From NCBI RefSeq assembly GCF_044324875.1, contig NZ_CP172185.1: DNA of 64,000 nt; one strand, 5' to 3'. Source of the DNA: Escherichia coli. GTDB taxonomy: Bacteria > Pseudomonadota > Gammaproteobacteria > Enterobacterales > Enterobacteriaceae. Shown here piece after piece: positions 9,001-12,000 of this stretch. Positions within the stretch are counted from its first letter, which is position 1. The number at the start of each line of letters is the position of its first letter. Position numbers: made by a program.

Positions 9001-12000
9001 ACTGGTATTCCCTCTTCTACGCTAATTTTAGTTATGATTGCCTTGTCGGGTTTAGGATTAGCGACAACAATGATTCGACATTCAGAATTTTTATTCTTTT
9101 CGTATCTAATGTTATTAATCTGATTAAGTATTGATTGTGTCTGTTGCGTAAGTGGTGTCGAACTTATCGTTTCAATGTTATTAATAAGACTTACAAGTTG
9201 AGCCACAATTTTTGAGTAGTCTGCATTTGTATATGTAGTGTTCGTGTGGCACGCATTAATTTGTTGGAGTTGTTGTTGCGCTAAATCAAATTGTTCAGCG
9301 TTATATCCTTCTTCAGACAATGAAAAATTAATGGGTTGCTGTTCTTCCTGATTATCACAAGGCCACATCGGTGTGTCTGGTGTTTTAACATTGTCGGTAT
9401 CTGTTGTGCGGTTATAAATATCGCCGTGATATGTATTTATCATACCTGGGGTAAAGTCAATTGACATAACATTCCTTATTGTTCATCTATTTCGCTAAAT
9501 TTTTGTAAATCGGAGAATTAGAGCAGGAATGGATTTTCTTCTACGCGGAAATAAACACAATGCGCCATATCTTCCTGATATAATTACCTTTAACTTCCCT
9601 TTCATTTCCACCCGGTAATATTTGTGTATAAAAAAAGGGCAGTGATAGTATCGTAAAGGAAAACGTTAACAACTATCAAAAAGCGCTCATTTTAAAAAGT
9701 TATGATGTTCTCCGATAGTGTGTGAAGTGATATTTTTGTGATGTTTTAGATGTGTAATAATGAACCAGGTTAAAGTGTATTTAAAAATGTGTTGTATTGG
9801 CGACTGAAATCTGCCCTTTAAAAGGGGGGATAGCACTGAGACAAAGAGGCATTGCTTCTCCGATAAAATGTCAGAGAAGCATGATTGCGTGGTGATTGTC
9901 GATTGATGACTTACTGACGGATCCGTCATCATTCTCAAAGCATTAGTTAAGTTATTTGTGCTTTTTAAGGATTATCCTATCTATGATTTTCTACTCAGAA
10001 GGATAAGGCACTCACAATGCTCCTTATAGTTTACTGCTGGCATCTATTTAAAATAGCATTTGAGTCAAATAGCCCATCAAGATAGCCATACCTAATATAA
10101 CCGTCAGGAATGCAGCTATCATCGGCATTCTGAACATTGATTTAAGTAATATCACTTCCGTCAGGCTTGCGCCGGCACTGCCGATGATTAATGCCATTAA
10201 TGCTCCCAGACCCATTCCTTTTGTCATCAGAACAGATGCCAGAGGGATAACCGCCTCTGCCCGGATATACAGCGGAATACCGACAACGGCGCTCAATGGG
10301 ATGGCGAAGGGATTATCTGCCCCTGCATGAGCGGCAATCCACTCTGAGGGAATAAAGCCATAAATAAAAGAGCCTATTAATACCCCTAACAAAAGATATG
10401 GCAGTACATCTTTAAACTGTTGCAACGCATCTTTGGTGGCTAGTTTTATGGGATTAATACTTACCACAGCTTTGGTACTGCAACAGTTTACTACAGGTTT
10501 CTCAATGGCTTTAGCCGCTGGACTACAGCAACTCACTTTTATTGGCGTATATGTCGTCCCCGGCGAAGTTTTGGCTGGAGCACAACAATTTGCTGATGAG
10601 CTTTTACTGGCAATGATATGACGTTCAAATCCCAGGGAATCCAGGATAATACTGGCAAGTACGGAGACGCCGGCGGCGATAATCGCGTACAACAAGGTAA
10701 CTTTCCAGCCAAAAGTCACCCACATTAACCCGACGATAATGGGATTAAGTAATGGGGAAACAAATAAAAAAGTGAGGGTCGGACCGAACCCGGCTTTCGC
10801 TGACAACAATCCACGTAACATGGGGATTGTCGAGCAACTACAGAACGGGGTAACGGCTCCCAACAGAGCCGCCAGGAGATAGCCTCTCCCTTTTCTGGCC
10901 CCCATCATCTGCTGGATTTTATGGTCTGGCACCTTTTGTCTTATCAGGCTGACACCGGCACTAATCACTATAAACAGCAAAGAAAGCTCGACGGCGAGAA
11001 ACACAAACATCTCTGCGGCATCTTGCAGCATCGCAAGCCAACTACTCATACGTAACCTCATTGAATAAATCTATATTTCCAGAATAATCGAAATAAAATT
11101 CAGATCAAGATATTTCTGGTATTATCGAAATATCAACCAGACAAAGGGGGTGTCATATGCAGTTGGAAGAAGTTGCTAAAGCGCTGAAAGAGCTAGGTCA
11201 CCCGACCCGTTTGTTCATATTCAAACACCTGGTCAAAGCGGGGGAACAAGGTTTGCCGGTCGGTGAGTTGCAAAAGCAGCTTGGGATACCCGGCTCTACA
11301 CTCAGTCACCATATTTCAGCACTGGTATCGGTAGGGCTGGTCAAACAAAACCGTGAGAGTCGGACGCTGATGTGTGTTTCGCAATACGCAATGCTGGAAG
11401 CGATAATTGAATTCTTACGCGAGGAGTGCTGCGTAAATAGCAAAATTGCCTGATGCGCTACGCGCTACAGATTTCATGCCATATATTGAATTTGCACGGT
11501 TTTGTAGGTCGGATAAGACGCGTTAGCGTCGCATCCGACATAAACGAAGCGCACTTTACCAACTATCGGCAGTGGATATCGCCGCTTTATTTCAGGCGTT
11601 TACCCGCTTCATCAACCACTTTCTCGCCATCTTCCTTGGTGAACGCGCGTTGTTGCGCATCTGGCAGAATTTCCAGCACCACTTCTGAAGGGCGGCACAG
11701 GCGAGTTCCCAGCGGCGTCACCACAATCGGGCGATTAATCAGAATCGGGTGCTGAAGCATAAAGTCGATTAGCCGATCGTCAGTAAATTTATCTTCTGCA
11801 AGGCCCAGTTCCTCATACGGCTCGACGTTTTTACGCAACAGCGCGCGTACGGAAATCCCCATATCGGCAATGAGTTTGACCAGCTCATCGCGCGTTGGCG
11901 GTGTTTCCAGATAATAGATAATGGTCGGTTCTGTACCGCTGTTGCGGATCATCTCCAGCGTATTACGCGACGTACCGCAGGCCGGGTTGTGATAAATGGT

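What the first reader, a model, noticed from the sequence alone, without database searches (positions are those of the whole stretch)
10048..11453. Accessory arsP-type permease with an unusual triple-CC loop and a non-canonical ArsR regulator beside arsRBC
The permease carries the ArsP hallmark TPFCSCSTIP, known from methylarsenite/roxarsone efflux permeases. It also has three vicinal cysteine pairs (NCCAP, SCCSP, NCCST) in a roughly 45-residue hydrophilic loop, a plausible trivalent organoarsenical binding site. The divergently encoded ArsR-family protein lacks the classical CVC site and instead has a C-terminal CC plus one upstream Cys, reminiscent of ArsR types that sense As(III) through C-terminal cysteines. 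Together they look like a self-contained organoarsenical sensing and efflux module, which I do not place in K-12.
Basis: partly seen in the sequence, partly recalled or inferred. Interest (0 to 1): 0.55.

Follow-up and report, generated by a model that had tools for sequence, protein, structure and literature searches.

The report
E. coli methylarsenite sensor–efflux gene pair
Beside the ordinary arsenic genes this E. coli strain carries an unnamed regulator and pump that match a Shewanella pair known to switch on in response to methylarsenite; about 41% of complete E. coli genomes have it, and K-12 keeps only remnants.

Summary
A PF03773 (ArsP_1) permease lies at 10048-11049/11061 (-). It has TPFCSCSTIP and three CC pairs in a disordered loop. 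A divergent 98-aa ArsR-family gene lies at 11157-11453 (+). It has Cys73 and Cys91-Cys92, and no CVC site.

The pair is the E. coli counterpart of the Shewanella putrefaciens 200 arsR-arsP pair. The regulator is 58% identical to SpArsR, the published methylarsenite-selective repressor. Its Cys73/91/92 match SpArsR Cys83/101/102, and no third C-terminal cysteine follows. The permease is 50% identical to the Shewanella ArsP.

A 20-bp dyad, ATTTC-N10-GAAAT, occurs twice in the 64-kb window. Both copies lie in the 95-bp divergent promoter region. One matches the SpArsR-controlled arsP promoter at 24 of 25 bases.

- The CSC motif is family-wide and is also found in Cu/Zn exporters.
- Cys-rich loops are the rule in this clade, so this one is not unusual.

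The intact pair is in 2223 of 5426 complete E. coli genomes. The K-12-type deletion allele is in 3164.

Verdict: a new, unannotated member of a known kind. No experiment exists for E. coli.

The parts
10048..11049 (-). arsP-type permease CDS: 333 aa from the RefSeq start, or 337 aa from an in-frame ATG at 11061
   Evidence: ORF. Pfam ArsP_1 PF03773, E=6.9e-53 over residues 13-334. RefSeq annotates it as 'permease', 1002 nt. 50% identical (326 bits) to the S. profunda orthologue of S. putrefaciens arsP Sput200_1226. AF2 model pLDDT 88.4, with an ion-transporter-superfamily fold.
10822..10851 (-). TPFCSCSTIP motif (residues 71-80), containing Cys74-Ser-Cys76, at the break between helices 59-70 and 75-87
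   Evidence: Read from the sequence. Invariant in 80 of 80 orthologues. Helix break in the AF2 model. A C(S/T)C motif is universal in ars-operon ArsP homologues, and 'tPF' before it marks ArsP cluster 2 (PMC4435449).
10453..10617 (-). Disordered cysteine-rich central loop (residues 149-203) with three CC pairs at 10582-10587, 10525-10530 and 10480-10485; inferred to be cytoplasmic
   Evidence: Cysteine positions. Mean pLDDT per 10-residue block is 49-66 across residues 151-200. Loop length varies from 25 to 102 aa and always holds 1-10 Cys in 80 orthologues. The surrounding segment has K+R 7 against D+E 2.
11075..11094 (.). Operator-like dyad 1, ATTTCCAGAATAATCGAAAT; overlaps a candidate -10 hexamer for the regulator gene
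   Evidence: ATTTC-N10-GAAAT has exactly 2 hits in 64 kb against 0.09 expected. The dyad is present in 45 of 46 orthologous divergent intergenic regions. The two sites lie in a 37-nt direct repeat. Candidate promoter TTGAAT-16-AATAAT at 11061-11088.
11112..11131 (.). Operator-like dyad 2, ATTTCTGGTATTATCGAAAT; lies between candidate -35 and -10 hexamers for the permease gene
   Evidence: Matches the SpArsR-controlled S. putrefaciens arsP promoter at 24 of 25 bases. Candidate promoter TTGATA-18-TATCTT at 11136-11107 on the - strand.
11157..11453 (+). SpArsR-type ArsR-family repressor CDS, 98 aa; Cys73 at 11373-11375 and Cys91-Cys92 at 11427-11432
   Evidence: ORF. ArsR/SmtB family. Best solved relative is AfArsR 6J05, E=4.7e-10, with the CC pair aligned to AfArsR's ENCC cysteine pair. 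58% identical to SpArsR, with Cys83/101/102 matching Cys73/91/92. In the AF2 model, Cys73 is in wing strand 70-75 and the CC pair follows helix 77-90 directly.
11587..13721 (-). Neighbouring canonical arsR-arsB-arsC operon for inorganic arsenic (context, not part of the module)
   Evidence: NCBIfam: ArsC 305 bits, ArsB 729 bits, ArsR PRK10141 227 bits. RefSeq annotation.

Best explanation
The two genes are the E. coli version of the arsR-arsP unit first described in Shewanella putrefaciens 200. It is a two-gene module for sensing and exporting trivalent organoarsenicals, chiefly methylarsenite, MAs(III).

Proposed mechanism. Steps marked 'inferred' were not shown here.
1. Repression. The 98-aa repressor, as a homodimer, binds two 20-bp dyads (ATTTC-N10-GAAAT) in the 95-bp divergent promoter region. 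It thereby represses both its own gene and the permease gene. The sites are shown by sequence and by conservation across species. Binding is inferred.
2. Induction. MAs(III) needs only two sulfur ligands. It binds the vicinal Cys91-Cys92 pair at the end of the C-terminal dimerisation helix and releases the repressor. No third cysteine follows the pair, so inorganic As(III) should induce poorly. This is inferred from SpArsR.
3. Export. The permease has an elevator-type fold of the ion-transporter superfamily. Its Cys74-Ser-Cys76 sits at the tip of a helical hairpin that enters from the cytoplasmic side. It exports the organoarsenical (inferred).
4. Loop. The disordered, cysteine-rich central loop, probably cytoplasmic, may capture substrate. 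It is an accessory feature, because its sequence and length vary freely (inferred).

The module complements the adjacent arsRBC operon, which handles inorganic arsenic. It is ancestral at this locus and was lost by deletion in the K-12 lineage.
For: Regulator:
- It is 58% identical to SpArsR over 92 aa. The SpArsR sequence was recovered from the supplement of PMC12124457 and checked at 98% identity against the S. profunda orthologue.
- Cys73/91/92 correspond to SpArsR Cys83/101/102. The CC pair also aligns with the ENCC cysteine pair of AfArsR 6J05, Cys95-Cys96 in the papers' numbering.
- No cysteine follows the CC pair. By contrast, 24 of 57 clade members carry one, mostly as CC-X4-C.

Published behaviour of SpArsR:
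- It responds to MAs(III) and not to As(III), because it lacks the third cysteine (PMC11868830; PMC13236881).
- An independent biosensor built from SpArsR and the arsP promoter reached 73% of full derepression with 1 uM MAs(III) and 9% with 50 uM As(III). It gave no response to DMAs(III) or to pentavalent species.

Operator:
- The dyad occurs exactly twice in 64 kb, both times in the intergenic region, against 0.09 expected.
- Site 2 matches the Shewanella arsP promoter at 24 of 25 bases.
- The dyad is present in 45 of 46 orthologous intergenic regions, and at least twice in 33 of them.
- The two sites overlap candidate divergent promoters.

Permease:
- It is a full-length PF03773 protein and 50% identical (326 bits) to the Shewanella ArsP orthologue.
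- The CSC motif is invariant.

Genomic context:
- The pair lies beside arsRBC here and in Buttiauxella, and beside arsRDABC in Citrobacter.
- On an IncF plasmid the order is arsH, regulator, then divergent permease. An IncI1 plasmid keeps an arsH remnant cut by IS26.
- In Craterilacuibacter the permease lies between arsA and acr3 (arsD-arsA-permease-acr3); in two Endozoicomonas loci it lies just downstream of an acr3, arsD and arsA cluster.

Population: the intact pair is in 2223 of 5426 complete genomes.
Against: - Neither E. coli gene has been tested.
- Identity to the Shewanella proteins is only 50% and 58%, so inducer and substrate could have shifted.
- I could not read the primary papers (Chen et al. 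2015 and 2017). I therefore do not know whether transport by the Shewanella ArsP itself was measured. The evidence I could read concerns the regulator and the promoter.
- The CSC motif is shared with Cu/Zn exporters.
- Only 7 of 80 orthologous loci from other genera have ars genes within 10 kb.
- Cys73 is invariant in the clade but has no role in the published two-cysteine model.
- The promoter hexamers are weak consensus matches: 5 were found against 3.2 expected.
- The cytoplasmic placement of the loop rests on the positive-inside rule and on secondary structure. No coordinates or experiment support it.
Confidence: 0.72

Rival explanations
1. The permease exports a soft metal cation such as Cu(I), Zn(II), Cd(II) or Hg(II), as SO_0444 of Shewanella oneidensis does. 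The ArsR/SmtB-type regulator would then sense that metal through its three cysteines.
For: The best NCBIfam hits are the SO_0444 Cu/Zn efflux family (109 bits) and SaoE (86.5 bits). The CSC motif is shared with those families. SO_0444 mutants are sensitive to Zn and Cu. CC-rich and His-rich loops are typical of metal transporters, and most orthologous loci are not linked to ars genes. A small His-rich ORF lies near the pair in 4 loci (cluster 21).
Against: The SO_0444 score is far below its equivalog cut-off of 300. SO_0444 is controlled by a MerR/ZntR-type regulator, whereas here the regulator is an SpArsR orthologue with the same cysteines and the same operator. Where neighbours are informative, they are arsenic genes such as arsH, arsDA, acr3 and arsBC, not cop, czc, znt or mer genes.
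Confidence: 0.1
2. It is a second pump for inorganic As(III)/Sb(III), backing up ArsB and induced by arsenite.
For: The pair lies next to arsRBC or arsRDABC in Enterobacteriaceae. In some genera the permease lies directly after arsD-arsA, which fits the older proposal that ArsP can pair with the ArsA ATPase (PMC6205960). Cys73 plus the CC pair could in principle give three ligands for As(III).
Against: SpArsR has the same three cysteines (Cys83/101/102) and barely responds to As(III). [quoted passage not shown] The regulator lacks the cysteine after the CC pair that 24 of 57 relatives have and that AfArsR uses.
Confidence: 0.1
3. The pair is a decaying or silent remnant in E. coli with no current function. 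Its position beside arsRBC is a historical accident.
For: 58% of complete genomes carry a deletion allele. The neighbouring yhiS is a pseudogene in several strains. The loop is hypervariable.
Against: Both ORFs are intact. The membrane core is nearly invariant between E. coli, E. fergusonii, Salmonella, Citrobacter and Aeromonas at 73-98% overall identity. Both operator dyads are perfect. The pair has spread on hundreds of conjugative plasmids. The alleles fall into two classes, intact (2223) and deleted (3164), which together account for 5387 of 5426 genomes. This does not look like gradual decay.
Confidence: 0.05

Closest known systems
SpArsR-ArsP of Shewanella putrefaciens 200 (Sput200_1227 / Sput200_1226)
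   Same: Same architecture: a small ArsR divergent from a PF03773 permease. The regulator is 58% identical, with the same three cysteines and no cysteine after the CC pair. The permease is 50% identical and also has a cysteine-rich central loop with CC pairs. The same ATTTC-N10-GAAAT operator is present, with 24 of 25 bases identical at one site.
   Different: The E. coli regulator lacks the 10-residue N-terminal extension. The intergenic region is 95 bp with two dyads 37 bp apart, against about 222 bp with three related sites in Shewanella. The E. coli pair has not been tested.
ArsP of Campylobacter jejuni (the founding MAs(III)/roxarsone(III) efflux permease)
   Same: Same Pfam family, and a C(S/T)C motif in the membrane domain. 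The reported function is efflux of trivalent organoarsenicals but not arsenite (PMC6205960).
   Different: I could not obtain the C. jejuni sequence. Campylobacterota homologues are about 31-35% identical, for example 33% for the H. pullorum arsP-arsR homologue. In C. jejuni the gene sits in an arsP-arsR-arsC-acr3 operon, not in a divergent two-gene unit. That Cys65 and Cys67 are essential in CjArsP is my recollection of Chen et al. 2015 and was not checked.
AfArsR of Acidithiobacillus ferrooxidans (type-2 As(III) site; PDB 6J05)
   Same: It is the closest solved structure (E=4.7e-10). The vicinal CC pair at the end of the C-terminal helix aligns residue for residue.
   Different: AfArsR uses a third ligand, Cys102, to bind As(III). 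The E. coli protein ends six residues after the CC pair with no cysteine.
SO_0444 family Cu/Zn efflux transporters and SaoE
   Same: Same superfamily and the same CSC core motif.
   Different: Scores of 109 and 86.5 bits are far below the equivalog cut-offs of 300 and 325. The regulator type differs (MerR/ZntR for SO_0444), as does the genomic company.
ArsB and DASS (INDY, Pho90) elevator-type transporters
   Different: Sequence identity is only 8-11%. The E. coli protein is about 330 aa against 430-540 aa, so it is a minimal version. There is no detectable sequence homology to any solved chain.

Membership tests
[quoted passage not shown] | Full-length match to the PF03773 profile | tested here: met
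   E=6.9e-53, residues 13-334 against model positions 3-293 of 294.
[quoted passage not shown] | Conserved C(S/T)C motif in the membrane domain, with 'tPF' before it in ArsP cluster 2 | tested here: met
   TPFCSCSTIP at residues 71-80, invariant in 80 orthologues. The motif definition comes from PMC4435449. The motif also occurs in Cu/Zn exporters, so it is necessary but not sufficient.
[quoted passage not shown] | Genetic linkage to arsenic genes or to an arsenic-type ArsR | tested here: met
   The pair is adjacent to arsRBC. It has its own SpArsR-type regulator. Orthologues lie beside arsRDABC, arsH or arsDA-acr3. Only 7 of 80 loci from other genera have ars genes within 10 kb.
[quoted passage not shown] | Close sequence relationship to an experimentally characterised ArsP | tested here: inconclusive
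   50% identity to the orthologue of S. putrefaciens arsP, whose transport activity I could not verify. The C. jejuni ArsP sequence was not obtainable. A H. pullorum arsP-arsR homologue is 33% identical.
[quoted passage not shown] | Efflux of, and resistance to, MAs(III)/Rox(III) but not As(III) | not testable with these tools
   Needs growth and transport assays.
SpArsR-type (two-cysteine, MAs(III)-selective) ArsR repressor | ArsR/SmtB winged-helix fold | tested here: met
   HTH_20 and HTH_5 hits. NCBIfam HTH_metalloreg scores 61.9 against a cut-off of 55. AF2 model pLDDT 92.9, with the order a1-a4, beta hairpin, a5.
SpArsR-type (two-cysteine, MAs(III)-selective) ArsR repressor | Vicinal Cys-Cys at the end of the C-terminal helix, equivalent to SpArsR Cys101-Cys102 and AfArsR Cys95-Cys96 | tested here: met
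   Cys91-Cys92 align with both. They directly follow helix 77-90 and are invariant in all 57 regulator sequences (56 orthologues plus the window's own).
SpArsR-type (two-cysteine, MAs(III)-selective) ArsR repressor | No third C-terminal cysteine (the AfArsR Cys102 equivalent) and no N-terminal CVC site | tested here: met
   The tail after the CC pair is VNSKIA. There is no cysteine in helices 1-4. 24 of 57 relatives do carry an extra cysteine.
SpArsR-type (two-cysteine, MAs(III)-selective) ArsR repressor | Controls an adjacent arsP through a shared operator | tested here: met
   Shown at the sequence level only. There are two perfect dyads in the divergent region. One matches the SpArsR-controlled arsP promoter at 24 of 25 bases. 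The dyad is conserved in 45 of 46 loci. Binding itself was not tested.
SpArsR-type (two-cysteine, MAs(III)-selective) ArsR repressor | Derepression by MAs(III) and not by As(III) | not testable with these tools
   Published for SpArsR only.
SO_0444 family Cu/Zn efflux transporter (NCBIfam NF033936) | Score at or above the curated equivalog cut-off | tested here: not met
   109.2 bits against a cut-off of 300.
AfArsR-type (type-2, three-cysteine) As(III)-sensing ArsR | Three-coordinate site made of a CC pair plus a downstream cysteine | tested here: not met
   There is no cysteine after Cys92. The site definition comes from PMC11868830.

The most novel reading that the evidence does not exclude
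The disordered, cysteine-rich central loop of this ArsP clade may be a built-in device for harvesting substrate. Its vicinal CC pairs would bind methylarsenite two-coordinately, as the CC pair of the partner repressor is reported to do, and pass it to the Cys-Ser-Cys site in the membrane. The number of pairs (0-4 among orthologues, three here, up to seven in distant relatives) would set capture capacity or substrate range. I found no description of such a loop in the ArsP literature I could search. The invariant Cys73 of the repressor, which the published two-cysteine model does not use, may likewise have a role not yet recognised.
Probability: 0.3. Interest if true: 0.5.

Novelty: new member of a known kind. 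Interest (0 to 1): 0.33.

Why it matters
E. coli K-12 and its arsRBC deletion derivatives are the standard methylarsenite-sensitive hosts for testing organoarsenical resistance genes and for building biosensors. K-12 is such a host because its lineage deleted this very module.

About two in five complete E. coli genomes still carry the module, and so do hundreds of conjugative plasmids in E. coli and Salmonella. RefSeq labels the two genes only as 'permease' and 'ArsR/SmtB family transcription factor'.

Naming them would have three practical effects:
- It would improve annotation.
- It would explain strain-to-strain differences in tolerance to methylarsenite and to aromatic arsenical feed additives.
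- It would provide a native E. coli regulator and promoter pair as a candidate MAs(III) biosensor.

It also identifies a natural presence/absence polymorphism. That polymorphism could be used to test whether methylarsenite made by gut anaerobes affects E. coli fitness.

Tried and rejected
- Primary papers. I tried to read Chen et al. 2015 (ArsP) and 2017 (SpArsR). Neither is held, by DOI or by PMC id. I used secondary descriptions and the sequences and biosensor data in PMC12124457.
- C. jejuni ArsP sequence. It could not be retrieved. I named ten distant representatives and looked at two of them. The Campylobacter sp. protein P0379 has no ars context. The H. pullorum protein P0408 is followed by an ArsR gene and served as a stand-in.
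- Cu/Zn exporter (SO_0444) and SaoE membership. Rejected, because scores are far below the cut-offs.
- Solved structures by sequence. None was found for the permease. The fold comparison gave only superfamily-level matches.
- 'The family is always in ars operons'. Rejected: only 7 of 80 loci have ars genes within 10 kb, and the constant partner is the regulator (58 of 80).
- 'The triple-CC loop is unusual'. Rejected.
- 'The module was inserted into a K-12-like ancestor'. Rejected in favour of deletion in the K-12 lineage. K-12 retains the last 70 bp of the regulator gene, with the CC codons mutated to Tyr-Cys. It also retains a weak 61-bp trace of the permease gene, at 67% identity.
- Cross-regulation of arsRBC by this repressor. 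No dyad lies near the arsR promoter, and one-mismatch hits are at chance level.
- Search for an existing description of the E. coli genes or of the cysteine-rich loop. Nothing was found.
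Full report
**What is there**

The window is E. coli chromosome. The gene order is gor, agrA/B-dinQ, arsR-arsB-arsC, the two genes of the finding, a yhiS-like ORF, slp and dctR. The permease ORF runs 10048-11061 on the minus strand, 337 aa. RefSeq and every homologue start at the second ATG (11049), giving 333 aa, and a GAGG lies 6 nt upstream of it. The regulator is 11157-11453 on the plus strand, 98 aa. 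The 95 bp between them is a divergent promoter region.

TPFCSCSTIP is at residues 71-80. The CC pairs are at 159/160, 178/179 and 193/194. Together with Cys74 and Cys76, these are the only cysteines in the protein. The regulator has Cys73 and Cys91-Cys92 only.

**Family placement of the permease**

Pfam gives a full-length ArsP_1 (PF03773) match, E=6.9e-53. NCBIfam offers only SO_0444 Cu/Zn efflux (109 bits against a cut-off of 300) and SaoE (86.5 against 325), so the protein belongs to neither. No solved structure is detectable by sequence.

[quoted passage not shown] SO_0444 is a Cu/Zn determinant under a ZntR-like regulator (PMC3219624). The motif therefore marks the superfamily and not the substrate. 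A survey of ars operons found a universal C(S/T)C motif in ArsP homologues, with 'tPF' before it in cluster 2 (PMC4435449). This protein has that cluster-2 signature.

**The regulator gives the identification**

Its best solved relative is AfArsR (6J05, E=4.7e-10). The CC pair aligns exactly with the ENCC cysteine pair of AfArsR, numbered Cys95-Cys96 in the papers. AfArsR binds As(III) through Cys95, Cys96 and Cys102. [quoted passage not shown]

The supplement of PMC12124457 prints a synthetic construct that carries the SpArsR coding sequence (Sput200_1227) and the 222-bp arsP (Sput200_1226) promoter. I translated the coding sequence. I repaired one frameshift caused by text extraction, using the 98%-identical S. 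profunda orthologue in locus L036 as a guide. SpArsR then aligns with the window protein at 58% identity over 92 residues. SpArsR has a 10-residue N-terminal extension, so its Cys83, Cys101 and Cys102 correspond exactly to Cys73, Cys91 and Cys92 here.

The AlphaFold model (pLDDT 92.9) puts Cys73 in the second strand of the wing. It puts the CC pair immediately after the last helix. All three cysteines are invariant in all 57 regulator sequences (56 orthologues plus the window's own). Twenty-four of the 57, mostly from Vibrio, carry an extra cysteine after the pair, usually as CC-X4-C. The E. coli and S. putrefaciens proteins do not.

**Operator**

The intergenic region holds two copies of a 20-bp dyad, ATTTC-N10-GAAAT, at 11075-11094 and 11112-11131. 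They lie within a 37-nt direct repeat. These are the only two exact matches in 64 kb, against 0.09 expected. One-mismatch matches elsewhere are at chance level, and none lies near the arsRBC promoter.

Site 2 and its flanks match the S. putrefaciens arsP promoter at 24 of 25 bases. That promoter maps to the intergenic region between the SpArsR orthologue and the permease in L036. This confirms that the published arsP is the orthologue of the window's permease. The two permeases are 50% identical, 326 bits.

Across 46 orthologous divergent pairs from other genera, 45 have the dyad and 33 have at least two copies. The consensus is ATTTCTAGTATTATCGAAAT. In the window the dyads overlap candidate sigma-70 hexamers for each gene. 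These are weak consensus matches, so the promoter assignment is tentative.

Experimental support exists for the Shewanella parts only. The SpArsR/arsP-promoter biosensor reached 73% of the derepressed signal with 1 uM MAs(III) and 9% with 50 uM As(III). It did not respond to DMAs(III), MAs(V) or DMAs(V) (PMC12124457).

**Structure and the loop**

Counting charges supports a cytoplasmic loop. Segment 40-58 has five K/R. The segment holding the cysteine-rich loop (residues 143-203) has seven K/R and two D/E. Segment 237-252 has none. If 59-87 is a hairpin, the cysteine-rich loop lies on the same side as the 40-58 segment, which is the cytoplasmic side. This is inferred and was not tested.

The loop varies greatly. 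Among 12 close homologues the membrane core is almost invariant, while the loop changes in length and sequence. Among 80 orthologues the loop is 25-102 residues long, always has 1-10 cysteines, and has 0-4 CC pairs. Among 100 diverse family representatives, 41 have at least one CC pair and 30 have no cysteine in the loop. A cysteine-rich loop is thus a compositional trait of the clade, the Shewanella ArsP included. The triple-CC form is one variant of it.

**Genomic context elsewhere**

The constant partner of the permease is the regulator. It is adjacent in 58 of 80 genome loci and usually divergent. Arsenic genes lie within 10 kb in 7 of 80 loci. That is a minority, though far more than I would expect for a random locus (my estimate; no control was run).

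The informative cases are as follows:
- Citrobacter: arsRDABC, then regulator and permease.
- Buttiauxella: arsRBC and arsH nearby.
- Craterilacuibacter: the permease sits between arsA and acr3.
- Two Endozoicomonas loci: the permease lies just downstream of an acr3, arsD and arsA cluster.
- An IncF plasmid: arsH, regulator, then divergent permease, with no genes for inorganic arsenic.
- An IncI1 plasmid: the first 70 codons of arsH remain, cut by IS26.

ArsH is described as an oxidase of trivalent organoarsenicals (PMC6205960). In Aeromonas, Plesiomonas and most marine genera the pair stands alone. Homologues occur on about 1000 plasmid records, mostly conjugative plasmids of E. coli and Salmonella.

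**Population and history in E. coli**

The 2.1-kb region is present at 80% coverage or more in 2223 of 5426 complete genomes. E. fergusonii has a permease about 90% identical to E. coli's.

K-12 has 628 bp between arsC and yhiS. That spacer retains the last 70 bp of the regulator gene. It now reads MLDAIIGISRREYCVNSKIA, so the CC pair has become Tyr-Cys. A weak 61-bp trace of the permease gene is also present, at 67% identity and E=2e-4. This K-12-type junction is found in 3164 of 5426 genomes. The two alleles together account for 5387 of 5426. The module is therefore ancestral at this site and was lost by deletion in a large part of the species, K-12 included.

**Comparison with what is known, and verdict**

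The pair works like, and by the sequence-level tests belongs with, the SpArsR-ArsP unit. It passes every feature I could test. The functional features cannot be tested with these tools.
- It is not an SO_0444 Cu/Zn exporter (score cut-off not met).
- It is not an AfArsR-type three-cysteine arsenite sensor (third cysteine absent).
- Its relation to the founding C. jejuni ArsP is distant, about 33% to a Helicobacter stand-in, and was not tested directly.

I found no paper that names these E. coli genes. A 2025 review lists arsP only in C. jejuni, Cupriavidus metallidurans and S. putrefaciens (PMC12607644).

This is a new, unannotated member of a known kind. It is useful for annotation and for understanding why K-12 is sensitive to methylarsenite, but it would not surprise a specialist. 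The open points are the role of the cysteine-rich loop and of the invariant Cys73.

Noticed in passing
L091 (K-12 MG1655) 4780-5080; corresponds to window 9777-11453: K-12 keeps decayed remnants of the module between arsC and yhiS. The last 70 bp of the regulator gene survive with the CC codons changed to Tyr-Cys. A weak 61-bp trace of the permease gene also remains. This deletion allele is in 3164 of 5426 complete genomes, and the intact pair is in 2223.
   Followed up: yes
L062, L063, L075, L077, L084 (about 9569-11029 in the full-length loci); L007 8563-11313: A paralogous pair (ArsR-like regulator plus a 344-aa permease, 48-52% identical to the window's) is carried as cargo next to an ISL3-family transposase. 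Nearly identical copies occur in Salinicola, Nitrincola, Pseudomonas, Shewanella and Acinetobacter, and a related pair (permease 47.7% identical to the window's) lies next to an ISL3 transposase on an IncHI2 Salmonella plasmid. PMC6947025 mentions such an IS (ISPst2b) with cargo of unknown function. It carries one copy of the same operator dyad.
   Followed up: partly
L015, L030, L031, L041, L049, L057, L072 and others (regulator C-termini): 24 of 57 orthologous regulators, mostly from Vibrio, have an extra cysteine 3-7 residues after the CC pair, usually as CC-X4-C. This resembles the three-cysteine arsenite site of AfArsR. The clade may therefore contain both MAs(III)-selective and As(III)-responsive sensors.
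   Followed up: partly
window 8244-9467 (-): The yhiS-like ORF is intact here (407 aa) and matches no NCBIfam family. It is split by IS5 in K-12 and frameshifted in the closest genome, strain 19KM1831.
   Followed up: no
window 11454-11586: A REP/BIME-like palindromic element (tgtaggtcggataagacgcgttagcgtcgcatccgaca) fills the gap between the converging ends of the regulator gene and arsC. It is also kept in K-12.
   Followed up: no
window 13872-13955 and 14107-14191 (-); window 3601-3632 (+): Rfam finds two AgrB-family antisense sRNAs between arsR and gor (the agrA/agrB-dinQ locus). It also finds the shuA/chuA 5'-UTR RNA thermometer upstream of the haem receptor gene. The strain therefore carries the chu haem-uptake genes.
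   Followed up: no
L005 8272-8481; L006 7761-8471: On IncF and IncI1 resistance plasmids the pair sits beside arsH, or beside an arsH remnant cut by IS26, and is embedded among IS26-flanked antibiotic resistance genes (SHV-12, dfrA12, aadA2, sul1). Many of the listed plasmid hosts are poultry or pig isolates. This could reflect co-selection by arsenical feed additives, or simply sampling bias.
   Followed up: partly
L033, L030 and 9 other Vibrio-type loci, within about 0.5 kb upstream of the permease: In 11 loci an ECF-type sigma factor with a cysteine-rich C-terminus (…ECCELELD…CSRC) lies close to the pair. In 4 loci there is a small His-rich ORF. The meaning is unknown.
   Followed up: no
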